Made by a program: the position numbers and the translations under genes
Sequence record: MZ501080
Length of the DNA stretch: 47,149 nt
Reading direction: 5' to 3' (one strand)
DNA from: Escherichia phage JeanPiccard
The notes under the pieces: model-generated
Told to the model about the DNA's origin: nothing
The model's input: only the letters and a program-made list of their open reading frames with translations
The model's database searches: none
Shown here: positions 13,232-42,306 of the stretch, in pieces
How positions within the stretch are numbered: the stretch's first letter is position 1
Layout: every line of letters begins with the position of its first letter

Positions 13232-13249
13232 TAGCACTAAATGGTAAAG
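13232..13249 (+). promoter_or_regulatory. degenerate dyad motif TAGCACtaaaTGGTAAAG (family copy c)
   Basis: motif family member with one half-site altered; followed by TATAAT. Confidence 0.3.
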
Positions 13250-13302
13250 CCAAAAGGATTTGGCTTGCTATAATCAACTCATTAAAACTGTGAGGTGATA
13301 AA

Positions 13303-24011: not shown

Positions 24012-24029
24012 TAGCACTTTTTGTTAAAA
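24012..24029 (+). promoter_or_regulatory. dyad motif TAGCACttttTGTTAAAA (family copy f)
   Basis: directly after dam stop; followed by TATAGTTAAAG. Confidence 0.4.
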
Positions 24030-24086
24030 CGAAATTAATGTTTTTCGTTATAGTTAAAGAACACAAGAAAACAATGGGGGTTAGTC

Positions 24087-29142: not shown

Positions 29143-29616
29143 TTACTCTTTAGCTTTTCGTGCTGCTTCGTTGGCGGCCTTGATCTTGCGCCATGATCGA
29201 CACTCTGGCTTGGTGGCTAATTCAGCCTCAGTAACAACGCGCAGCATGTGACGTTTTTTGCATCGTAGTGTAAGCGGTTTTCCGTTACCGTCGAATTGCA
29301 GGTCCGGTCGACAGAATGTAGCGCGAAAACCTTCCCCAGTTCGTTTGTAGTAGTTATGCGACAGTTGAGCGCCACGTGCAGAAATCATACCACGCTTAAA
29401 CCATTCTTCCACGGCCTGAGGAGTTACCTTTAGCTGCTTTGCGATATTCGCCTTTGTGCCGAAGAAATCAAGTAGCATCTCAAGCCGCGCACGTAGCCCT
29501 GCCCTTACTTCATCTTTTAAAACGTAGTAGCCTGAAGGTCGTTTGCGCTTCTTTTTGTCTTCAGTGCGGACGGTTCCGTTATTCCCGTTAATGGTTCGCT
29601 TGTCTACTGCATTCAT
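29143..29616 (-). CDS. HTH DNA-binding protein (putative transcriptional regulator)
   Basis: helix-turn-helix-like segment ANIAKQLKVTPQAVEEWFKRG; basic termini. Confidence 0.55.
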   Translation of the reverse strand: MNAVDKRTINGNNGTVRTEDKKKRKRPSGYYVLKDEVRAGLRARLEMLLDFFGTKANIAKQLKVTPQAVEEWFKRGMISARGAQLSHNYYKRTGEGFRATFCRPDLQFDGNGKPLTLRCKKRHMLRVVTEAELATKPECRSWRKIKAANEAARKAKE

Positions 29617-29717: not shown

Positions 29718-31712
29718 ATGTTACCTATCGAGAAGCTGGTTGCAAACTTTGATAAAGAAAGAATTAAACAGATTCAGAAAGATTACCAGTTTGGCGAGAT
29801 AACCCCTTACGAGTTCCAGTGCGTTACATTTGATGCAATTGGGAAGGCTATTGGCAAGTATGAGGCCCCATTTATCGCAGATCTTTCTGTGTCTGCTGGT
29901 AAGACAATCATTCTTGCCATGATTGGTAAGCGCATGGAGCAATTGGGATTGCCTTACATGGTTCTATCTCGCCAGTCAGAGATAATCAGCCAGAACTCAG
30001 AGGAACTTCGTAACTTCGGCATCCGTAACAGCGTATATTGCGCCGGCCTTAACGTTAAATCAGTTTATTACCCAACCATAGTTGCTAGTGAGGGCACGGC
30101 AGCCAACGGCTTGTTTAAGGGGCTTGGTGACTACGTCCCTGCAGTTATCGCAATAGACGAATGTCACATGGTCGATCACATGGATATTGTAGAAGCTGAG
30201 GAGAACGAAGAAACATTTGAGCAAATGAGCACAAAGAAAGGAGAAATGGTATTTAAAGATGGCGTTAATACCGGATTGCTTGGCACTGGTCGTGCGCAGT
30301 ACACGCTAATCATCACCGAAATGAAAAGGCGATGCCGCGAGAAGTACGGTCGCGAGCTTAGAATTTTTGGCCTAACTGGCAGCCCGTATCGAAATAACGA
30401 TCACATAGTGGTTAGCAATCCAAATGTTCGTGGATTCTGGCGCAAGACAGTGATTCAGGTGCCAACTAATTACCTTGTTGATTTGGGATTTGTTGTGCCT
30501 ACTGTTTATGGCGAGGTTGGCGATTTGGGTTACGATCTTAGTGAGTTTGTGCCCGATGGGAACGATGGCGTGAAGGACTTTGGCAAGAAAGAAATGGATG
30601 CAATGGAAGAGAAAATCCACCAAAGCCAATCCATGACGCAAAAGATTATGCAATTTGCTGCAAAGTTCATGGAGACTCGTAACTCGGCTCTTGTGACATG
30701 TTCTGGTAAGCGTCACTGCGAGGAAGCGGCAGCGTCGCTTCCTGATGGTGTGACATGGGCTATAGTAACTGACTCTACAGGTGAGAAAAAGCGCCGTGAG
30801 ATTCTGGCTGATGCATATGAAGGTAAGTATAAATTCATATTTCAGATAGGTTGCCTCACAACCGGCGTTAACGTTCCACCATGGGATACATCAATCATTC
30901 TGCGCAAAGTTGGTAGTATCACGCTTCTTATTCAGCTTTTGGGTAGAGGAATGCGAATTCTTAAGAAGAAGCATAAGGAAATGGGAATGGTTAAGGATGA
31001 TCACGTGGTGCTTGACTTTGCTGGTACTCTTGATGACATGGCAGAATTGTACTTTGACCCAATCATAGAAGAAGTTCAGGACCAGAAGTTCAAATCGTCA
31101 CGAAAAAGTGGCGACAATCCAAGGGTATGTCCTGCCTGCGGCTATGAGAACTCTCCTTTTGCTCGTCGCTGCAATAACGTAATTGATGGGAAACGTTGTG
31201 AGCATTTTTTTAAATTTCGCTTGTGCGAAGACATAGAGGACCAGCAGACAAAAGTTACTATTAAGAAAGGTTGTGGTGAGAAGAATGATATTGCCGCTAA
31301 AAACTGCAGGTGCTGTGGCGAGATGCTTATTGACCCTAACGCAAAGTTGTCTGGAAAGATGTATCGACAAGGGGATTGGTTGAGAGTTTACGGATTCAGT
31401 ATTGGGTTAACTAAAAACCAAACCGGAATCGTTGCTCGATATGAAATCATGGCTCACAGCGGGGATAGGTTTGTTGCTTACGAAACTTTCTTTCCAGAGA
31501 GTGATCATCGCGTCTGCTCTGTAAAGTGGAAGGCGTTTTGCCAAACCCACATCGCCAACAAAACAGAAGCATTTCGCATCGGAAGACTTCGAAACACTAA
31601 AATGATTATGACCAATGCAAGTCAATTCCGTGAACCTATGAGAGTGACGCACAGAAAAAACCAGAAAGGTCAGGATATTATCGCAAATAAATCTTTTACT
31701 ATGGAGGATTGA
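29718..31712 (+). CDS. ATP-dependent DNA helicase (SF2-like) with C-terminal zinc-ribbon region
   Basis: Walker A SAGKT, Walker B/DExH-like IDECH; C-terminal CPACG..C..CRCCG cysteine clusters. Confidence 0.75.
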   Translation: MLPIEKLVANFDKERIKQIQKDYQFGEITPYEFQCVTFDAIGKAIGKYEAPFIADLSVSAGKTIILAMIGKRMEQLGLPYMVLSRQSEIISQNSEELRNFGIRNSVYCAGLNVKSVYYPTIVASEGTAANGLFKGLGDYVPAVIAIDECHMVDHMDIVEAEENEETFEQMSTKKGEMVFKDGVNTGLLGTGRAQYTLIITEMKRRCREKYGRELRIFGLTGSPYRNNDHIVVSNPNVRGFWRKTVIQVPTNYLVDLGFVVPTVYGEVGDLGYDLSEFVPDGNDGVKDFGKKEMDAMEEKIHQSQSMTQKIMQFAAKFMETRNSALVTCSGKRHCEEAAASLPDGVTWAIVTDSTGEKKRREILADAYEGKYKFIFQIGCLTTGVNVPPWDTSIILRKVGSITLLIQLLGRGMRILKKKHKEMGMVKDDHVVLDFAGTLDDMAELYFDPIIEEVQDQKFKSSRKSGDNPRVCPACGYENSPFARRCNNVIDGKRCEHFFKFRLCEDIEDQQTKVTIKKGCGEKNDIAAKNCRCCGEMLIDPNAKLSGKMYRQGDWLRVYGFSIGLTKNQTGIVARYEIMAHSGDRFVAYETFFPESDHRVCSVKWKAFCQTHIANKTEAFRIGRLRNTKMIMTNASQFREPMRVTHRKNQKGQDIIANKSFTMED

Positions 31713-31713
31713 T

Positions 31714-32133
31714 ATGAAAATTACAGATAAGGTTGATTACATTGAGTTTTACCCAGGCCCTGTTAATTCATGCCCTAAAGAGGATGACGAACAAATCTTT
31801 TGCTCTGATTGGGTTAAGTATAACTATCCAGACATGGTGTTTTTCCACTGCGTGAATGAGGGTAAGAAAACAATTGGACAAGCAAGAAAAGACCAGGCTA
31901 AGGGTTTATTGAAGGGCGTATCTGACTGCATGTTTCTGATACCTGAATCTATCCGAGGCAAATACCCTTTCGGAGCCATAGAGCTAAAGAGGGCAGGAAA
32001 AACACAGGCAAGCCCAGTCAGTGACGAACAGAAGTCCTTCCTGAAAAGCGTAAGAGAATCAGGCGGCTTCGCGGCTGTAGCCTATGGTCGCGAGGGTTTT
32101 CTGGCAGCATTCAAAGAAATGATTTCAAAATAG
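31714..32133 (+). CDS. VRR-NUC domain nuclease
   Basis: 139 aa; segment GAIELKRAGKTQASPVSDEQKSFLKSV typical of VRR-NUC proteins; coupled to helicase. Confidence 0.6.
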   Translation: MKITDKVDYIEFYPGPVNSCPKEDDEQIFCSDWVKYNYPDMVFFHCVNEGKKTIGQARKDQAKGLLKGVSDCMFLIPESIRGKYPFGAIELKRAGKTQASPVSDEQKSFLKSVRESGGFAAVAYGREGFLAAFKEMISK

Positions 32134-32148
32134 CACGAATTGCTAAAG
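32131..32148 (+). promoter_or_regulatory. dyad motif TAGCACGAATTGCTAAAG (family copy i); TAG is the VRR-NUC stop
   Basis: exact 17-mer TAGCACGAATTGCTAAA shared with copies j, p, q. Confidence 0.45.
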
Positions 32149-32211
32149 GTATTTCGCAGGGATGCGATATAGTTACCCCATCGAAACGAAACACTAAAAG
32201 AGAGAAACAAA

Positions 32212-32415
32212 ATGGCCACTATCTACACCACTAAGAAATACATTTCACGTAAAACTGGTTACGAGTATAACCTGGTTCTTGATGACTCGCTCGGCATGCT
32301 TCTCGCTGACGCTGAAGATGCTGAATACTGCTTTGAAGTTAGCTCGACTTACAAAGATGATTTAGAAACTGTTAAAAACGTATTCGGCGAAAAATTTGAT
32401 GAGGTGTCAGAATGA
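32212..32415 (+). CDS. hypothetical small acidic protein (paralog A)
   Basis: 67 aa; C-terminal 23 aa identical to paralog B (YKDDLETVKNVFGEKFDEVSE). Confidence 0.55.
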   Translation: MATIYTTKKYISRKTGYEYNLVLDDSLGMLLADAEDAEYCFEVSSTYKDDLETVKNVFGEKFDEVSE

Positions 32416-32453
32416 GAGTGGTAGTTGTAAACTGGAAAACTGGAGAGGATTCA
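32347..32453 (+). repeat. 107-bp direct repeat, copy 1
   Basis: differs at 3 positions from 32658..32764. Confidence 0.85.
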
Positions 32454-32459
32454 AAATAG
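32412..32459 (+). pseudogene. truncated 5' remnant (15 codons) of small ORF duplicated at 32723..32881
   Basis: MRVVVVNWKTGEDS then premature TAG supplied by the dyad motif. Confidence 0.5.
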
Positions 32460-32474
32460 CACGAATTGCTAAAC
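32457..32474 (+). promoter_or_regulatory. dyad motif TAGCACGAATTGCTAAAC (family copy j)
   Basis: sits exactly at the junction where the duplicated segment ends. Confidence 0.45.
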
Positions 32475-32531
32475 TATGACGCATGGAAGCGTGTATTATC
32501 AACTCATCGAAAAGAAACTAGGAGAGAAAAA

Positions 32532-32726
32532 ATGAATACTATCTATACTGCTAAATTCTACGAATCACGCAAAACCGGTTACCAGTATGAATTAGTAATT
32601 ACAGATGACGGTTATTTTCTTGATGATGGTGAGGGGTACTCATTCGAAGTTAGCCCAACCTACAAGGATGATTTAGAGACTGTTAAAAACGTATTCGGCG
32701 AAAAATTTGATGAGGTGTCAGAATGA
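32532..32726 (+). CDS. hypothetical small acidic protein (paralog B)
   Basis: 64 aa from ATG 32532 (GGAGAG RBS); paralog of 32212..32415. Confidence 0.55.
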   Translation: MNTIYTAKFYESRKTGYQYELVITDDGYFLDDGEGYSFEVSPTYKDDLETVKNVFGEKFDEVSE

Positions 32727-32881: not shown

Positions 32882-33102
32882 TGGCAATTTTTACATTTGA
32901 GAATCAATGGGAAGCATTTAAGGTAATGGCAGCGGAGGAATTATACAAGGCATATTATAAGCGTGATTTATGGGGATTGGTGCATTGCCTGGATATGAGC
33001 TTTGAAGAAGACTACCTGAACACCGATATCGAAACATGGCGAGACAGGATGGTTGCTGATATCGAAGAGATGAAAAAAGATTGCCCGGAGGATTTTTTAT
33101 GA
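32881..33102 (+). CDS. hypothetical protein
   Basis: 73 aa ORF, translationally coupled. Confidence 0.45.
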   Translation: MAIFTFENQWEAFKVMAAEELYKAYYKRDLWGLVHCLDMSFEEDYLNTDIETWRDRMVADIEEMKKDCPEDFL

Positions 33103-33284
33103 TTGGCATCTGCGTAAAAACGAATGGGCAATTTACACTACTCGAGGATTACGAAATCAACTCTCATTCAGATGAGGTAACAGTGTTTAGCGATGATGGA
33201 TGCTATTGGTTCCTTAGTTATCAAGGTGATGGCTACTACGGATGCATTGATTCAAACGGAAAAGAAGTTAGTTTCTTAGTCTAA
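33099..33284 (+). CDS. hypothetical protein
   Basis: 61 aa from ATG 33099 (GGAGG RBS). Confidence 0.45.
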   Translation: MIGICVKTNGQFTLLEDYEINSHSDEVTVFSDDGCYWFLSYQGDGYYGCIDSNGKEVSFLV

Positions 33285-33303
33285 TAGCACTTTTTGTTAA
33301 AAC
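33285..33303 (+). promoter_or_regulatory. dyad motif TAGCACttttTGTTAAAAC (family copy k)
   Basis: immediately after stop codon of upstream gene. Confidence 0.4.
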
Positions 33304-33359
33304 TAAAATCCACGGATGGATTATATTAAGCACATAAACAACGCAGAGGATTTTGAATA

Positions 33360-33488
33360 ATGAAAATCGTAGACAAAGAAATGTTTGAAATTGCACAGAC
33401 TTATGCAAATGAAGCAGTTAAAACCGGCTCATATTTCTACTGGATGTGCGCTAAAGAATACCTGAAAATGGCTTACGGGTTATGATAA
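33360..33488 (+). CDS. hypothetical small protein (42 aa)
   Basis: ATG after AGAGGA RBS; ATGA-coupled to next ORF. Confidence 0.35.
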
Positions 33489-33730
33489 TTGAAACTGGGC
33501 GCGAAGCTGTATGGGCGCATTGCGGGGAGGCTGGATTGCAAGATGACATTAAGCAGATATCCCGCTTCTTTGAAATAAAAGATATCAGCGTTGTCTTTAA
33601 TGGTAAATTCTCATACATGGATGAGCGACCAAGAAAATACGTAAGAGTTAAGCCAGGTGTCAGGATTGATGTTAATGAATTCCTTAAATCTGAGGGATTC
33701 AAGTTTAAGATAACGAAGTCTAAGGATTAA
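33482..33730 (+). CDS. hypothetical protein
   Basis: 82 aa ORF. Confidence 0.45.
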   Translation: MIIETGREAVWAHCGEAGLQDDIKQISRFFEIKDISVVFNGKFSYMDERPRKYVRVKPGVRIDVNEFLKSEGFKFKITKSKD

Positions 33731-33732
33731 GT

Positions 33733-33984
33733 ATGTTGGGTTTAGATTTTCAGCCAGAGCATTATGATTTAGTGTATGGGCAAAGTGGATCGAAGTTTAG
33801 AGCGATACCTATTGCTGACTGGTTCCCTCCTGACTATGTTGATGTGAACGCAAAAACTAAAGAAGGAAAGTGGGTACAGATTTACTACTCCCCAGCATGC
33901 GGAAACCTTTGCATGACTGACCTTGATCAGAAATTAGCAATTAGTGCGGAAGTGATAGACTACTGGTTGAAAGAAGTTGAATGA
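33733..33984 (+). CDS. hypothetical protein
   Basis: 83 aa ORF with AAGGA RBS. Confidence 0.45.
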   Translation: MLGLDFQPEHYDLVYGQSGSKFRAIPIADWFPPDYVDVNAKTKEGKWVQIYYSPACGNLCMTDLDQKLAISAEVIDYWLKEVE

Positions 33985-34067
33985 CGAGCCTAATACTAGT
34001 AGCATCGTTACCACTGTTTAGCTTTACTATCTTATACTTTATCGTAATGAATTAAGGAACTTTTATA

Positions 34068-35198
34068 ATGGCAACCGCAAAAATCACCAACGAACAATTG
34101 CGCGAAGAGTTAGCAAATGGCATGACCAACAAGGCAATCGCAGAGAAGTACGGAATGAACATTCGCAACGTTGAATTGCGTCGCAGTAAATTAGCTAAAC
34201 AAGGCGAAGGGCATGGTCGCGATGTAAGCAACTTAATCCCTCAGGGCTATGCAGTTAAAGGCGTCTCCAGCTTAATTGGTGCTGATGGCGAGATTAAGCA
34301 ACAGTGGGTTAAATCAGATATCGACAAGGAGAAGCAAGAAGAGATGATGCTTCAGGCAATTCAGGCCCTAACTGATGAGTTGCCGCGTGAGAAAGCTAAA
34401 GCTTTAAGGGTTGGTTTATGGGAAGATACTTTAAGCCTTTACCCCGTGTTCGACCTCCACATTGGAGCAATGGCTCATCATGCTGAGTGTGGTGAGAACT
34501 ATAGTACTGAAATCGCTGAGAGAGTTCTTAATGATTACTTTGATTACGCGGTTGCAAAGGCCCCCAACTCCAAGAAAGCTGTATTGCTGATTGGGGGTGA
34601 CTTCCTTCACTCTGACGGAATGGAAGCGGTAACACCAACCAGTCGTCATGTTCTTGATCAAGATAGCCGTTATCACAAACTTGTTTACGTAGCAGTGCGA
34701 GCGACACGTCGAGCAATTAGCCGTATGCTTGATAAGCACGCCGAGGTTGAGGTTCAGATTATTCCAGGTAACCACGATCTCTCAGGTATGATTTGGCTTC
34801 GTGCTGCAATGGCAGCTTTCTATATGGATGAGCCTCGAGTTAATGTTGATGCGTCCCCCGCTGCGCTTCACGTAACGCAATTTGGGAAGACGCTGCTTGG
34901 TTACTGCCATGGGCACGAACTCAAAAAGCCTGATACCCGACTATCAGCACTGGCTCGTGACCATCGCAAAGCATTTGGTGAATCAGAGTATGTTTACACC
35001 CATTCAGGCCACTATCACCATCAAACTATTACGGAAGGAAATCTGGGTATTGATGAATCACACGGCCAGCTTGGAGCGAAAGATGCGTACAGTGCTAACG
35101 GAGGTTATCGCTCTTACCGACAGGCTTCGGTGATAATTTATAGTCCTGAGTTTGGTGAGATTGGACGATTTACTTGCCGCCCGGAAATGTTTAGTTAA
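34068..35198 (+). CDS. calcineurin-like metallophosphoesterase with N-terminal HTH-like domain
   Basis: phosphoesterase motifs GDFLHSD and GNHD plus His-rich C-terminal HSGHYHH; N-terminal GMTNKAIAEKYGMNIRNV resembles an HTH. Confidence 0.65.
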   Translation: MATAKITNEQLREELANGMTNKAIAEKYGMNIRNVELRRSKLAKQGEGHGRDVSNLIPQGYAVKGVSSLIGADGEIKQQWVKSDIDKEKQEEMMLQAIQALTDELPREKAKALRVGLWEDTLSLYPVFDLHIGAMAHHAECGENYSTEIAERVLNDYFDYAVAKAPNSKKAVLLIGGDFLHSDGMEAVTPTSRHVLDQDSRYHKLVYVAVRATRRAISRMLDKHAEVEVQIIPGNHDLSGMIWLRAAMAAFYMDEPRVNVDASPAALHVTQFGKTLLGYCHGHELKKPDTRLSALARDHRKAFGESEYVYTHSGHYHHQTITEGNLGIDESHGQLGAKDAYSANGGYRSYRQASVIIYSPEFGEIGRFTCRPEMFS

Positions 35199-35216
35199 TA
35201 GCACTTTTTGCCTAAC
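35199..35216 (+). promoter_or_regulatory. degenerate dyad motif TAGCACttttTGCCTAAC (family copy l)
   Basis: directly after stop of phosphoesterase gene; followed by ATAATTACCACATCGAAACGAA leader. Confidence 0.3.
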
Positions 35217-35282
35217 GCATGCCGTAGAAATGCGGCATAATTACCACATCGAAACGAAATGAACTAAACGAGGAAACACAAA

Positions 35283-35459
35283 ATGACTAAAATGATTTAT
35301 TGCACCAAAAACAACTCCAAGACGCTACCATTTACAGTTAACCAGCCGTACAATGCAGAGTACCAGGGTGATGGATATTACAAGATTTACGGCGACGATA
35401 TGACGTGGATTTTAGCGCCGATTGAAGGTTCACTGGTTGAATTCATTATCGCTGACTAG
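35283..35459 (+). CDS. hypothetical small protein (58 aa)
   Basis: ATG with ACGAGGAAA RBS downstream of motif and leader. Confidence 0.4.
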   Translation: MTKMIYCTKNNSKTLPFTVNQPYNAEYQGDGYYKIYGDDMTWILAPIEGSLVEFIIAD

Positions 35460-35485
35460 CACAGAAAAAACATAGCGTTACGAAC

Positions 35486-35511
35486 GGGGAGCCTTTTGGC
35501 TCCCTTTTTTT
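35486..35511 (+). terminator. rho-independent terminator
   Basis: hairpin GGGGAGCCttttGGCTCCC followed by T8. Confidence 0.65.
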
Positions 35512-35589
35512 GTGCTTCTTTTACGAGCAGGGCTAATGTATCATTCTTTTACTAACTTAAACATTGACAAATACATAAAGGTGGATCAC

Positions 35590-35805
35590 ATGAGGGAAGT
35601 AATTAACGCCGCTACGGCATCAACTGGCGGTGCCGCGGTAACTGGCGCAGCAACTGGTCAAATGACCATAGCAATAATCAGTCTTATCGCTCTTATCATT
35701 TTTGGTGCGTGGGGGGCTTACTGGAAGTATAAGGACAGCCAGGCGATTCGCAGAGCACTTGAGTCGGGAGATTTAAAGACAGCAATCAAGATAAGGAGCA
35801 AATAA
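35590..35805 (+). CDS. holin (single-TM, pinholin-like)
   Basis: 71 aa from ATG 35590 (AAAGGTGG RBS); one TM segment MTIAIISLIALIIFGAWGAYW; charged C-terminus; precedes endolysin. Confidence 0.6.
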   Translation: MREVINAATASTGGAAVTGAATGQMTIAIISLIALIIFGAWGAYWKYKDSQAIRRALESGDLKTAIKIRSK

Positions 35806-36291
35806 ATGAAGCAGAAGCTGCTAATTAGCGCGGCTACGGCTGCGGCAATATACATCGCAGCACCGCTTATTGAGCTCGTTGAGGGTGTGGAGAACGAGAC
35901 TTACATAGACATTGCCGGGGTGAAAACCGTATGCGCAGGTGTCACTGGCCCTGACGTGGTTTGGGGTAAAACATACAGCAACAGTGAATGCCGGAAGCTG
36001 CTGGAGAAACACATTCAAATTCACGCAAAGCATGTTCAGAATGCAGTTACCCACCCAATTGCACCGCAGACAATGGCGGCTTTAATCAGTTTTAGCTACA
36101 ACGTTGGCGGTCATGCCATGAAGAATTCAACGGCAATCCGACTAATCAATCAGGGTAAAGTGGAGCAGGGTTGCAAGGCTCTCGGGATGTGGACAAAGGC
36201 TACCGTTAATGGCAAGAAGGTTGTCGTTAAGGGGTTAGTGAATCGCAGGAATGAGGAGATTAAGTTATGCTTAAGTGGGTTGCAGCGTTAG
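35806..36291 (+). CDS. endolysin, lysozyme-like with N-terminal SAR (signal-anchor-release) domain
   Basis: weakly hydrophobic Ala/Gly-rich N-terminus LLISAATAAAIYIAAPLI followed by lysozyme catalytic region ENETYID...T. Confidence 0.8.
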   Translation: MKQKLLISAATAAAIYIAAPLIELVEGVENETYIDIAGVKTVCAGVTGPDVVWGKTYSNSECRKLLEKHIQIHAKHVQNAVTHPIAPQTMAALISFSYNVGGHAMKNSTAIRLINQGKVEQGCKALGMWTKATVNGKKVVVKGLVNRRNEEIKLCLSGLQR

Positions 36292-36656
36292 TAATGTGCG
36301 TATCTTTATCTGGATGTTCAGCGACTGATGCACTGACCGGATTGATTGGCAGTAAGCCGGAAATTAGTGCGCAGGCTGGTGCAGAGAATAACAAGGTTGG
36401 AGTTGGGTTAACGAATAAGGTTGACTCAAGTAACTCCAGCGAAGCCACTGTGAAAGACTCTAAAGTTGGCTCGCTAGATAGCTCAAGCGGGAAAAAGACT
36501 GCTGACAACTCTATTAAGGCATCTACAATCACCGCGGAAAAGATTGAGATTACCAACAACGAATCATCCGCACTTCCGTGGATTGGAACTGGAGCAATGG
36601 GGTTGCTGGTTCTGATTCTCATGGCATTAATCTTAAGACGTAAAAAAGCCTCCTAA
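36267..36656 (+). CDS. unimolecular spanin (u-spanin, T1 gp11-like)
   Basis: N-terminal lipoprotein signal with lipobox LSGC, Ser/Thr-rich periplasmic region, C-terminal TM GAMGLLVLILMALIL then RRKKAS. Confidence 0.7.
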   Translation: MLKWVAALVMCVSLSGCSATDALTGLIGSKPEISAQAGAENNKVGVGLTNKVDSSNSSEATVKDSKVGSLDSSSGKKTADNSIKASTITAEKIEITNNESSALPWIGTGAMGLLVLILMALILRRKKAS

Positions 36657-39376: not shown

Positions 39377-39416
39377 TTTTCGTACCCCTCCCGTTTCGAT
39401 GAGATTAATATACAGG

Positions 39417-39435
39417 AAAAGCCCCTAAGGGCTTT
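39417..39435 (-). terminator. terminator hairpin (minus-strand operon)
   Basis: hairpin AAAGCCCttaGGGGCTTT with flanking T/A runs. Confidence 0.45.
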
Positions 39436-41779: not shown

Positions 41780-42306
41780 TGTTTGATTTCAACGAAGAAA
41801 AGCTGACAGATGAGCAGGTCATGAGTATTGCGAAGCAGGATGGGATTCCCCCGCTACGGGTTGCAATCAATGCAAACGGGTATCGTCATGTTCAACACCT
41901 CTGGAGTCATCCTGATGCGTCATCAATCCACAAGGGTGAGGCTGTTGAGGTTCTGCTGACAGCGATAAGGACTGAATCTATAGCTCGCAGGGGAGTTGTT
42001 GGCTTACAGAAGTCTTATGACCTAATTAGGAAGCTAAAGAGGTTTAAAGGTGACAATGACGGGCTAATGGAGAGGATTAAGGACGAAATGATTCCAGAGC
42101 TAGAGAAAGCGAATCTCGTTTGCCTCATTGGAGATAAGATTTATGTCCACCCGGCTATCATTGAGGAGTCCTGGCAACCCAACTTCAAAACTTACGAAGG
42201 TGATCACACTAGTAGACTACCATACCACTTGCGGTACAGTGAGGCGGAGGTGGAAGAGGCTATTGAGTTCTACCGGAAGACTAAATCACTCCTGAATGGC
42301 GAATAG
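41779..42306 (+). CDS. domain-deleted paralog of the P-loop ATPase (N- and C-terminal modules only)
   Basis: MFDFNEEKLTDEQVMSIA..PPLRVAINANGYR and CLIGDKIYVHP match the ends of 37010..38593; no Walker motifs. Confidence 0.55.
   Translation: MFDFNEEKLTDEQVMSIAKQDGIPPLRVAINANGYRHVQHLWSHPDASSIHKGEAVEVLLTAIRTESIARRGVVGLQKSYDLIRKLKRFKGDNDGLMERIKDEMIPELEKANLVCLIGDKIYVHPAIIEESWQPNFKTYEGDHTSRLPYHLRYSEAEVEEAIEFYRKTKSLLNGE

What the first reader, a model, noticed from the sequence alone, without database searches (positions are those of the whole stretch)
34068..35198. Calcineurin-like metallophosphoesterase fused to an N-terminal HTH-like domain
Phosphoesterase motifs GDFLHSD and GNHD plus a His-rich C-terminal HSGHYHH are preceded by a ~50-aa N-terminal segment resembling a helix-turn-helix (GMTNKAIAEKYGMNIRNVELRRSKL). 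A DNA-targeted phosphoesterase could be an Mre11/SbcD-like nuclease or a regulator-phosphatase; it may also be the protein that binds the repeated dyad motif.
Basis: partly seen in the sequence, partly recalled or inferred. Interest (0 to 1): 0.5.

Follow-up and report, generated by a model that had tools for sequence, protein, structure and literature searches.

The report
Phage HTH-tethered Mre11-like phosphoesterase gene
This is the T1-type phage gene for a DNA-binding helix-turn-helix domain fused to an Mre11/SbcD-like metal-dependent phosphoesterase: a common, already annotated but never tested phage protein that probably cuts DNA to feed or repair the phage genome.

Summary
Window 34068-35198 (+) is a real 376-aa gene in a T1-like phage (Drexlerviridae). 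It is the homologue of T1 gp16 and a full-length member of PHROG 704, "DNA repair exonuclease".

- **Catalytic site:** all five metallophosphoesterase motifs are present and invariant across relatives down to about 30% identity.
- **HTH:** the N-terminal three-helix HTH is real. It is weak in this sequence alone but significant in relatives and in the AlphaFold model.
- **Closest relatives:** the nearest solved folds and the only solved phosphoesterase sequence matches are DNA nucleases: Mre11/SbcD, PolD DP1 and the P. putida nuclease MPE. However, there is no capping domain and no Rad50/SbcC partner, so it is not a canonical Mre11.
- **Distribution:** the family occurs in 2056 of 50,697 phage records. 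It repeatedly sits beside dNMP kinase, polynucleotide kinase, thymidylate synthase or ligase genes, and often beside lysis genes.

The best reading is an HTH-tethered stand-alone nuclease that turns DNA, possibly the host chromosome, into dNMPs. This is inferred and untested.

That motif is the published 21-nt Drexlerviridae repeat. It is absent from two other phage lineages that carry this protein, and a Cro-like regulator fits its distribution better.

The finding is ordinary and of modest interest.

The parts
34068..35198 (+). Complete gene for the 376-aa HTH-metallophosphoesterase protein (T1 gp16 / PHROG 704 homologue); stop codon TAA at 35196-35198
   Evidence: ORF list; PHROG 704 E=8.7e-149 over residues 4-375; 99.7% identical protein in Veterinaerplatzvirus T145P1; T1 ST16 annotated 'DNA repair exonuclease'
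34054..34058 (+). Shine-Dalgarno-like AAGGA, 9 nt before the ATG
   Evidence: Read directly from the sequence
34089..34199 (+). N-terminal three-helix HTH domain (residues 8-44; helices 8-16, 21-28, 32-44; putative recognition helix IRNVELRRSKLAK)
34230..34382 (+). Family-specific connector: beta-hairpin (residues 61-85, conserved VKG.S..., W80, K82) plus a long helix (87-102). Role unknown; it is conserved even in relatives whose match starts after the HTH.
   Evidence: Alignments A1-A5; model; matches in Vibrio, Campylobacter and Thermus phages begin at residues 65-79
34422..35195 (+). Metallophosphoesterase (Mre11/SbcD/DP1-like) catalytic domain, residues 119-376
34452..34460 (+). Motif I, D129-L-H131 (metal ligands)
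   Evidence: Invariant in A1, A2, A4, A5 and A6
34596..34616 (+). Motif II, G177-D-F-L-H181-S-D183. The His at D+3 aligns with the GDLLH of T. maritima Mre11.
   Evidence: D178 and H181 invariant; aligned to GDlLH of 2q8u/4o24
34767..34778 (+). Motif III, G234-N-H-D237
   Evidence: N235 and H236 invariant
34908..34916 (+). Motif IV, H281-G-H283
   Evidence: H281 invariant
35001..35021 (+). Motif V, H312-S-G-H315-Y-H317-H318 (GHxH)
   Evidence: G314 and H317 invariant, H315 at least 90% conserved
35199..35241 (+). Copy of the Drexlerviridae 21-nt repeat/promoter module, starting at the base after the stop codon: TAGCAC-TTT-TTGCCT, then a 22-nt spacer holding a hairpin, then CATAAT. It precedes the next gene and is not part of the protein.
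   Evidence: repeat described in PMC11447400

Best explanation
The gene encodes a stand-alone, DNA-tethered, two-metal phosphodiesterase of the Mre11/SbcD/PolD-DP1 structural type. An N-terminal HTH, joined by a beta-hairpin and helix connector, brings a catalytically complete metallophosphoesterase core onto DNA. There the core most likely acts as an Mn2+-dependent exo/endonuclease releasing 5'-dNMPs.

In the phage life cycle it most plausibly belongs to DNA breakdown and nucleotide salvage. That would make it a candidate for the still unidentified enzyme that degrades the host chromosome in T1-like phages. By analogy it would work like T5 A1, without being a member of that family.

Shown here: the domain architecture, the intact catalytic site, the fold neighbours, the distribution and the gene neighbourhoods. 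Inferred: nuclease activity, the DNA substrate, dNMP products, and the host chromosome as target.
For: 1. **All metal-ligand motifs are invariant** over relatives down to 30% identity, so this is an enzyme and not a degenerate scaffold.
3. **A DNA-binding HTH is fused at the N-terminus.** In relatives it is replaced by other HTH types or doubled, as expected if DNA tethering is the selected property.
4. **Gene neighbourhood in independent lineages:**
   - Erwinia phage Tapenade: 5'-3' exonuclease, endonuclease, this gene, PNK/3'-phosphatase, dNMP kinase, ligase.
   - Thermus phage Lalka27b: this gene, nucleotidase, dNMP kinase.
   - Yersinia phage vB_YenM_25: this gene, PNK, dNMP kinase.
   - Roseophage EE36phi1: dCMP deaminase, dNTP pyrophosphohydrolase, thymidylate synthase, this gene.
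   - Thymidylate synthase lies nearby in L012 and RcKeef.
   - In Drexlerviridae lacking the SH3 gene, PNK and dNMP kinase are the commonest genes directly downstream (PMC13164509).
5. **Operon position here.** It is the last large gene on the rightward strand after the helicase and VRR-NUC genes, with a strong terminator only at 35486-35505.
6. **The open question it could answer.** T1 and TLS degrade host DNA and reuse the nucleotides, and the enzyme is unidentified (PMC11447400).
7. **Precedents.** T5 A1 is a predicted metallophosphatase with the same kind of structural neighbours. It is reported as necessary and sufficient for host DNA degradation (bioRxiv 10.64898/2026.04.02.716235), and distant A1 relatives also carry N-terminal HTH domains. 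Mycobacteriophage gp48 is a phosphoesterase that damages host DNA (PMC12287305).
Against: - I found no biochemical or genetic data for any member of this family (literature searches).
- The Mre11 sequence match is weak (E=0.0034).
- There is no capping domain and no Rad50/SbcC partner.
- Homology to T5 A1 is not detectable beyond the superfamily (hhalign probability 35%; different PHROGs).
- Neighbourhoods are heterogeneous. Many place the gene next to lysis or packaging genes rather than nucleotide-metabolism genes. Two place it by ligase, which fits repair as well as salvage.
- Nothing shows how such a nuclease would spare phage DNA.
Confidence: 0.45

Rival explanations
1. It is a recombination/repair nuclease for the phage's own DNA. 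An Mre11-like end- or hairpin-processing enzyme would work with the phage RecE/Erf, SNF2-type helicase, VRR-NUC resolvase and, in other phages, ligase and PNK. Its job would be to clean broken or blocked ends during recombination-dependent replication and concatemer formation.
For: It has the same fold and motif evidence as the main explanation. It lies on the same strand after the helicase and VRR-NUC genes here and in T1. It sits next to DNA ligase and near RusA in Campylobacter phage PC14. It is followed by PNK/3'-phosphatase and then ligase in Tapenade. The database name 'DNA repair exonuclease' reflects this reading.
Against: There is no Rad50/SbcC-type ATPase in T1-like genomes and no capping domain. 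Adjacency to dNMP kinase, nucleotidase and thymidylate synthase is explained better by nucleotide salvage. The name is only an automated annotation.
Confidence: 0.25
2. It is a phosphoesterase acting on small or terminal phosphates rather than on the DNA backbone. Candidate substrates are 2',3'-cyclic or 3'-phosphate ends (end healing together with PNK), cyclic or linear signalling nucleotides (counter-defence), or a phosphoprotein, as with lambda phosphatase.
Against: A fused, frequently exchanged HTH has no obvious role for a small-molecule enzyme. There is no hit to any PADLOC model. The sequence-level PDB hits are nucleases only.
Confidence: 0.12
3. It is primarily a transcription factor. 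The sigma-region-4/LuxR-like HTH would bind the 21-nt TAGCAC...TTGnTAAA repeat found in front of many genes and switch phage transcription, with the phosphoesterase domain as an accessory.
For: The HTH resembles sigma-70 region 4 and GerE. The repeat sits 22 nt (21-23) upstream of a -10-like box, where host sigma-70 alone would not fit. Canonical promoters are not enriched (13 found against 15.1 expected), and the binder is unknown (PMC11447400). One copy starts directly after this gene's stop codon. T5 A1 is reported also to affect RNA polymerase. The gene often lies at the boundary before lysis or late genes.
Against: The repeat is absent (0 matches) from Kagunavirus fPoEco01 and Dhillonvirus welsh, which both encode the protein. 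The family is present in 2056 records across many phage families. The Cro-like regulator at 29143-29616 is found in 829 records, essentially only Drexlerviridae, matching the repeat's known range. The left arm TAGCAC is more conserved than the right arm, so the element is not a symmetric operator. Strict invariance of the catalytic site argues that catalysis is the core function.
Confidence: 0.07

Closest known systems
Mre11 / SbcD nucleases (e.g. T. maritima Mre11 3qg5/2q8u, S. aureus SbcD 7dog, E. coli SbcD 6s6v)
   Different: 12-18% identity. There is no capping domain, no Rad50/SbcC-binding C-terminus, and no Rad50/SbcC gene in the phage. It has an N-terminal HTH and hairpin-helix connector that Mre11 lacks, plus long conserved family-specific loops (residues 135-147, 183-200, 332-352). 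No SbcD/Mre11 model in NCBIfam or Pfam is matched.
PolD small subunit DP1 (3'-5' proofreading exonuclease, 5ihe) and eukaryotic polymerase B-subunits
   Different: There is no DP2 catalytic partner, and T1-like phages encode no DNA polymerase at all. The N-terminal module is an HTH. Identity is about 12%.
Phage T5 A1 (phrog_1745), a predicted metallophosphatase required and sufficient for host DNA degradation
   Same: Both are phage-encoded predicted metallophosphoesterases whose structural neighbours are DSB-repair and proofreading nucleases (bioRxiv 10.64898/2026.04.02.716235). Distant A1 relatives also start with an HTH domain (HTH_23, HTH_38, HTH_7). There is a local similarity around motif III (NHDL..S.WL).
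   Different: It is not the same family: different PHROGs, and hhalign gives probability 35% over 55 columns. A1 is 556 aa with an extra domain of about 200 residues and a different motif II (HDxxDF...NHH). A1 is a pre-early gene; this gene lies with replication genes next to the lysis cassette.
PdeM / P. putida nuclease MPE (ligase-associated DNA damage response endonuclease, 6nvo)
   Different: The score is far below the family cut-off (19.8 against 150 bits). There is no Lhr/ligase operon context in T1-like phages, and PdeM has no HTH.
Cluster A mycobacteriophage phosphoesterase (A10ZJ24 gp48)
   Same: A phage metallophosphoesterase with phosphodiesterase activity that disrupts host genomic DNA (PMC12287305). 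This is a functional precedent.
   Different: I did not compare the sequences. No homology beyond the superfamily is claimed, and that paper describes no HTH.

Membership tests
Calcineurin-like metallophosphoesterase superfamily (Pfam PF00149) | Five metal-binding/catalytic motifs: DxH, GDxx(D/H), GNH(D/E), H, GHxH | tested here: met
   D129-x-H131, G177-D178..H181, G234-N-H-D237, H281, G314-H315-x-H317. These are invariant or at least 90% conserved in 38-41 relatives.
Calcineurin-like metallophosphoesterase superfamily (Pfam PF00149) | Score at or above Pfam's gathering threshold | tested here: inconclusive
   The window protein scores 20.8 bits against a 21.5 cut-off. 10 of 38 relatives match at E<=0.01, and relative P0146 reaches 25.1 bits.
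Calcineurin-like metallophosphoesterase superfamily (Pfam PF00149) | Beta-sandwich phosphoesterase fold | tested here: met
PHROG 704 ('DNA repair exonuclease'; T1 gp16 family) | Full-length profile match | tested here: met
   E=8.7e-149, residues 4-375 on profile positions 2-389 of 390; 63% identity to T1 ST16.
Mre11/SbcD nuclease family | Nuclease-type phosphoesterase core with GDxxH motif II | tested here: met
Mre11/SbcD nuclease family | C-terminal capping domain and Rad50/SbcC-binding region | tested here: not met
   The protein ends 59 residues after motif V, and those residues form the last core strands in the model. Only about 190 of 362 Mre11 residues align.
Mre11/SbcD nuclease family | Partner Rad50/SbcC ATPase encoded in the same genome | tested here: not met
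   None is annotated in T1's 77 ORFs. The window neighbours I scanned are helicase, VRR-NUC, DUF3987, primase, a Cro-like protein and SH3. Not every window ORF was scanned.
Mre11/SbcD nuclease family | Match to curated SbcD/Mre11 sequence models | tested here: not met
   No SbcD/Mre11 model appears in the NCBIfam or Pfam output.
Mre11/SbcD nuclease family | Mn2+-dependent exo/endonuclease activity on DNA | not testable with these tools
   Needs purified protein.
T5 A1 family (phrog_1745) | Detectable sequence homology to A1 | tested here: not met
   A1 hits only phrog_1745. hhalign of A2 against A7 gives probability 35%, E=4e-4, 55 columns.
PdeM (TIGR04123) | Score at or above the NCBIfam cut-off | tested here: not met
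   19.8 bits against a cut-off of 150.
LuxR/GerE or sigma-70 region 4 type HTH | Significant match of the N-terminal segment to the HTH models | tested here: inconclusive
   The window protein gives GerE E=0.044 and Sigma70_r4_2 E=0.21, both below their cut-offs. Relatives reach 2.4e-8 and 1.5e-9 but also hit many other HTH families. The model shows three helices, not the four of GerE. An HTH is supported; the subtype is not.
Known anti-phage defence or candidate defence proteins (PADLOC) | Any profile match | tested here: not met
   0 families at E<=1. The NCBIfam DS9_1 anti-phage phosphoesterase scores only E=0.041, 12.7 bits against a cut-off of 420.

The most novel reading that the evidence does not exclude
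The T1-type HTH-phosphoesterase would be the long-missing host-takeover nuclease of Drexlerviridae, possibly the classical T1 host-chromosome-degradation function. Like T5 A1, it would be bifunctional: the phosphoesterase core destroys the host chromosome to dNMPs, while the sigma-region-4-like HTH also engages the family's unusual TAGCAC-N3-TTGnTA-N22-TATAnT promoter modules or RNA polymerase. That would link host shut-off to phage transcription. HTH-plus-Mre11-like phosphoesterase would then be a recurrent, independently assembled takeover architecture in lytic phages.
Probability: 0.1. Interest if true: 0.65.

Novelty: new member of a known kind. Interest (0 to 1): 0.3.

Why it matters
The family is among the more widespread uncharacterised enzymes of lytic phages. 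It occurs in about 4% of deposited phage genomes and is a near-universal core gene of T1-like phages: the exonuclease-lysis module is present in 508 of 522 Drexlerviridae (PMC13164509).

If it proves to be the nuclease that dismantles the host chromosome, three things follow:
- It would close an open point stated in the T1/TLS literature.
- It would explain the recurrent linkage to dNMP kinase genes.
- It would give a handle on generalized transduction by T1-like phages, and on defence systems that sense products of genome degradation.

As it stands the result is an annotation refinement: an HTH-tethered, partner-less Mre11-like enzyme rather than a "DNA repair exonuclease". It is not a discovery.

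Tried and rejected
- Contexts were gathered instead from annotated phage records and from the look-up of encoding contigs.
- **Library unavailable.** The afdb50 fold library was not available; BFVD was used instead.
- **No direct PDB hit.** A single-sequence PDB search found nothing even at E<=10. Only family profiles gave hits.
- **T5 A1 homology rejected.** The idea that the protein is a T5 A1 homologue was tested and rejected as membership. It is kept only as an analogy.
- **Terminase small subunit not supported.** This arose from a Tara contig where the gene overlaps the start of TerL and from Dhillonvirus, where it precedes TerS. T1-like phages, Dhillonvirus and Kagunavirus all have a separate TerS, and the catalytic site is invariant.
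- **Defence or counter-defence role not supported.** There is no PADLOC hit. The Metis paper's metallophosphatase is a bacterial protein unrelated to this one.
- **TAGCAC hexamer alone is not enriched.** There are 31 copies against 22.6 expected. Only the 16-nt pattern is enriched: 18 against 0.37.
- **No experimental literature found.** Searches for experimental work on T1 gp16 or PHROG 704 found none.
- **T1 gene 2.5 not mapped.** I could not map the classical T1 gene 2.5 (host degradation) to an ORF, because the relevant papers are not in the library.
- **HTH docking not examined.** Model coordinates could not be inspected, so whether the HTH docks against the active site is unknown.
Full report
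**What the window is.** The 47-kb window is a T1-like siphophage genome (Drexlerviridae, Braunvirinae). The region 33000-36500 is 94.5% identical to Veterinaerplatzvirus T145P1 and 87-93% identical to phages 2725-N35 and vB_EcoS_CEB_EC3a. Gene order matches those records and T1 itself.

**The observation.** The ORF 34068-35198 (+), 376 aa, exists as described, with an AAGGA ribosome-binding site 9 nt upstream. Motifs I (D129-L-H131) and IV (H281-G-H283) are also present.
- In 20 Drexlerviridae homologues all of these residues are invariant.
- In 38 representatives at 30-71% identity, D129, H131, D178, H181, N235, H236, H281, G314 and H317 remain invariant. G177, G234, D237, G282 and H315 are at least 90% conserved.
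- Pfam's generic Metallophos model just misses its threshold (20.8 against 21.5 bits). PHROG 704 ("DNA repair exonuclease") matches from end to end at E=8.7e-149.

**The HTH.** It becomes solid at the family level.
- Among 38 relatives, the N-terminus hits Sigma70_r4_2 (best 1.5e-9), GerE (2.4e-8), HTH_8 (1.8e-6), HTH_28 (5.1e-6), HTH_23 (9.1e-6) and others.
- The family profile finds GerE 1fse at E=0.015 and other LuxR-type HTH structures.
- AlphaFold predicts three helices (8-16, 21-28, 32-44) with block pLDDT 84-88.
- In longer relatives the N-terminus is a different HTH type or two HTHs. In Vibrio, Campylobacter and Thermus phage homologues the match starts only at residues 65-79.

The HTH is therefore real, and it is an exchangeable module.

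**Anatomy.** Using a 41-sequence alignment, the model reaches mean pLDDT 82 and pTM 0.69. Its parts are:
- the HTH (residues 8-44);
- a conserved beta-hairpin (61-85, with invariant W80 and near-invariant K82) and a long helix (87-102);
- the phosphoesterase sandwich (119-376).

Three loops are poorly modelled yet highly conserved: 135-147, 183-200 (T189, P190, H194, L196, D197, D199, R201) and 332-352 (H332, D339, Y341, G345, R351). They presumably shape the substrate site. I could not inspect coordinates.

Independently, a profile of the phosphoesterase domain alone was searched against all PDB sequences. The only phosphoesterases it returns are T. maritima Mre11 (E=0.0034), the P. putida nuclease MPE (0.16) and P. 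furiosus Mre11 (2.9). The alignment pairs DlHiG, GDflH, GNHD and GHiH with the Mre11 motifs. NCBIfam's best phosphoesterase hit is the endonuclease PdeM, far below its cut-off.

Depositors and automatic pipelines have reached similar labels: "DNA repair exonuclease", "DNA polymerase II small subunit", and an HHpred probability of 99.59 to DP1. The core is therefore best described as Mre11/SbcD/DP1-like.

It fails the other defining features of Mre11. There is no capping domain or Rad50-binding tail, because the protein ends 59 residues after motif V. No Rad50/SbcC gene is present in T1-like genomes. No curated SbcD/Mre11 model is matched. It should not be filed as an Mre11.

**Distribution.**
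- The family has 5467 representatives of 50%-identity clusters at E<=1e-3, and 1384 at E<=1e-30. Most are 370-400 aa and match over nearly the full length.
- tblastn finds it in 2056 of 50,697 phage records. These include Drexlerviridae, Kagunavirus/Jersey-type phages, Dhillonvirus, SP6-like Autographiviridae, N4-like roseophages, Casjensviridae, and Vibrio, Campylobacter and Thermus phages.
- BFVD adds Lactobacillus, Bacillus and Cellulophaga phages.
- No PADLOC model matches.

**Context.** Here the gene is the last large gene on the rightward strand after the helicase (29718-31712), VRR-NUC (31714-32133) and a run of small ORFs. It is followed by the SH3-like DUF7244 gene, a strong terminator (35486-35505) and the holin-endolysin-spanin cassette.

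The exonuclease-lysis module is reported in 508 of 522 Drexlerviridae. Where the SH3 gene is missing, the commonest genes directly downstream are polynucleotide kinase and dNMP kinase (PMC13164509).

In other lineages I found the following orders:
- 5'-3' exonuclease, endonuclease, this gene, PNK/3'-phosphatase, dNMP kinase, ligase (Erwinia phage Tapenade).
- This gene, nucleotidase, dNMP kinase (Thermus phage Lalka27b).
- This gene, PNK, dNMP kinase, portal (Yersinia phage).
- dCMP deaminase, dNTP pyrophosphohydrolase, thymidylate synthase, this gene (roseophage EE36phi1).
- Thymidylate synthase nearby (L012 and RcKeef).
- DNA ligase, this gene (Campylobacter PC14).

It also often lies next to lysis genes or just before terminase, portal or head genes, and HNH homing endonucleases are frequent neighbours. 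I counted only about a dozen lineages, so this is suggestive and not statistical.

**Mechanism proposed.** The most economical reading has three parts. The HTH holds a partner-less Mre11-like two-metal nuclease on DNA. The nuclease degrades DNA to 5'-dNMPs. Those dNMPs are the substrates of the dNMP kinase encoded beside it in several lineages.

T1 and TLS are known to degrade the host chromosome and reuse its nucleotides. The TLS re-annotation states that the responsible gene product has not been identified (PMC11447400).

A close functional precedent now exists. [quoted passage not shown] It is reported as the sole factor necessary and sufficient for host DNA degradation (bioRxiv 10.64898/2026.04.02.716235).

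I tested whether the two are the same family, and they are not.
- A1 belongs to phrog_1745.
- Profile-profile comparison gives only 35% probability over 55 columns around motif III.
- A1 has an extra domain of about 200 residues and a different motif II.
- Distant A1 relatives nevertheless also begin with HTH_23, HTH_38 or HTH_7 domains. The HTH-plus-nuclease-like-phosphoesterase architecture therefore recurs in both families.

Mycobacteriophage gp48 is a further phosphoesterase precedent for damaging host DNA (PMC12287305).

All functional steps are inferred: nuclease activity, substrate and products. I put about 0.45 on the salvage/host-degradation nuclease, 0.25 on a phage-DNA repair/recombination nuclease, 0.12 on a non-backbone phosphoesterase, and 0.07 on a primary transcription-factor role.

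**The TAGCAC idea.** The hexamer alone is not enriched: 31 copies against 22.6 expected. The pattern TAGCACNNNTTGNTAA with at most one mismatch occurs 18 times against 0.37 expected, and 21 times in T1. It is the published 21-nt repeat aaATAGCACnnnTTGnTAAAA of TLS/T1/Rtp, whose role the authors left open between stoperator, enhancer and UP element (PMC11447400).

Aligning the copies shows a fixed module: TAGCAC-N3-TTGnTA-N22 (21-23)-TATAnT, followed by a conserved leader resembling CATCGAAACGA. The 22-nt spacing is too long for a normal -35/-10 pair, and canonical promoters are not enriched locally (13 against 15.1 expected). About half of the spacers contain a short hairpin of variable sequence.

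One copy starts at the base after this gene's stop codon (35199). That is simply the promoter module of the next gene.

Evidence against this protein being the binder:
- The repeat is absent from Kagunavirus fPoEco01 and Dhillonvirus welsh, which encode the protein at 47% and 43% identity. Their recognition helices do differ, so this is not decisive.
- The Cro-like regulator at 29143-29616 (P22_Cro E=7.6e-6, phrog_2856) is present in 829 records, essentially all Drexlerviridae. That matches the repeat's known range better.

**Novelty and verdict.** The protein is 96-99.7% identical to deposited phage proteins and belongs to a named PHROG. Its domain content has already been noticed piecemeal in annotations ("metallophosphoesterase", "winged helix-turn-helix domain-containing protein", "DNA repair exonuclease"). 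I found no experimental study of any member.

It is a new member of a known, uncharacterised family. The finding is correct but ordinary. The useful refinements are three:
- It is a partner-less, HTH-tethered Mre11/DP1-like enzyme.
- Its neighbourhoods point to nucleotide salvage.
- It is a reasonable candidate for the unidentified host-DNA-degrading activity of T1-like phages.

Noticed in passing
window, 18-20 copies: + strand 505, 9222, 13232, 24012, 29630, 32131, 32457, 33285, 35199, 42304, 42831, 43648, 44281, 45210; - strand 20977, 21725, 38666, 39449, 40600: The 'TAGCAC' motif is part of a fixed module: TAGCAC-N3-TTGnTA, then a 22-nt (21-23) spacer, then TATAnT, then a conserved leader resembling CATCGAAACGA. 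There are 18 matches against 0.37 expected. It equals the published 21-nt repeat of TLS/T1/Rtp, whose function is unresolved. The 22-nt spacing is too long for a standard sigma-70 -35/-10 pair, and canonical promoters are not enriched. This suggests an unidentified factor or an unusual mode of promoter recognition in T1-like phages.
   Followed up: partly
window, spacers of the repeat modules, e.g. 35214-35235, 13247-13270, 24027-24050, 33300-33322, and 39412-39434 on the minus strand: About half of the 22-nt spacers (8 of 19 with z<-1; the best is -11.2 kcal/mol, z -3.9, at 35199) contain a short hairpin whose sequence differs between copies. In T1 such hairpins are annotated as rho-independent terminators directly after the repeat (for example 41957-41972 followed by 41980-42007). 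Terminator and promoter seem to be interleaved in one compact module.
   Followed up: partly
window 32131-32726: Two adjacent small genes, 32212-32415 (67 aa) and 32466-32726, look like a tandem duplication. The second probably starts at the internal Met of MNTIYTAKFY. Both begin M(A/N)TIYT.K.Y.SRKTGY.Y.L. They end with near-identical C-termini: the last 22 residues TYKDDLETVKNVFGEKFDEVSE are identical. Each is preceded by its own identical copy of the repeat, TAGCACGAATTGCTAA (32131 and 32457).
   Followed up: no
window 29143-29616 (-): A 157-aa Cro-like HTH regulator (P22_Cro E=7.6e-6; phrog_2856) is encoded divergently from the helicase gene. It occurs in 829 phage records, essentially only Drexlerviridae. 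By distribution it is a candidate binder of the 21-nt repeat.
   Followed up: partly
window 35283-35459 (+), terminator 35486-35505: A 58-aa DUF7244 (SH3-like) gene lies between the phosphoesterase gene and the holin, followed by a strong intrinsic terminator. This is the stand-alone SH3 component of the Drexlerviridae lysis module described in PMC13164509.
   Followed up: no
L004 8234-9409 (Tara contig) and L014 32968-34110 (phage welsh): In a marine phage contig the homologue overlaps the start of the large terminase gene, with no recognisable small terminase between them. In Dhillonvirus it lies directly before TerS-TerL. A link to packaging cannot be excluded for those lineages.
   Followed up: partly
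A1-family proteins P0414, P0416, P0417, P0444, P0456; alignment A7: Distant relatives of T5 A1 lack T5's own N-terminus and instead carry HTH_23, HTH_38, CENP-B_N or HTH_7 domains. The host-DNA-degrading A1 family is therefore also an HTH-plus-metallophosphatase architecture. I did not see this noted in the parts of the A1 paper that I read.
   Followed up: partly
T1 (L003 42028-42510), L011 8213-8698, L007 6128-6598, L005 7004-7513: HNH homing-endonuclease genes sit immediately downstream of this gene in several unrelated phages. The gene border looks like a recurrent homing site.
   Followed up: no
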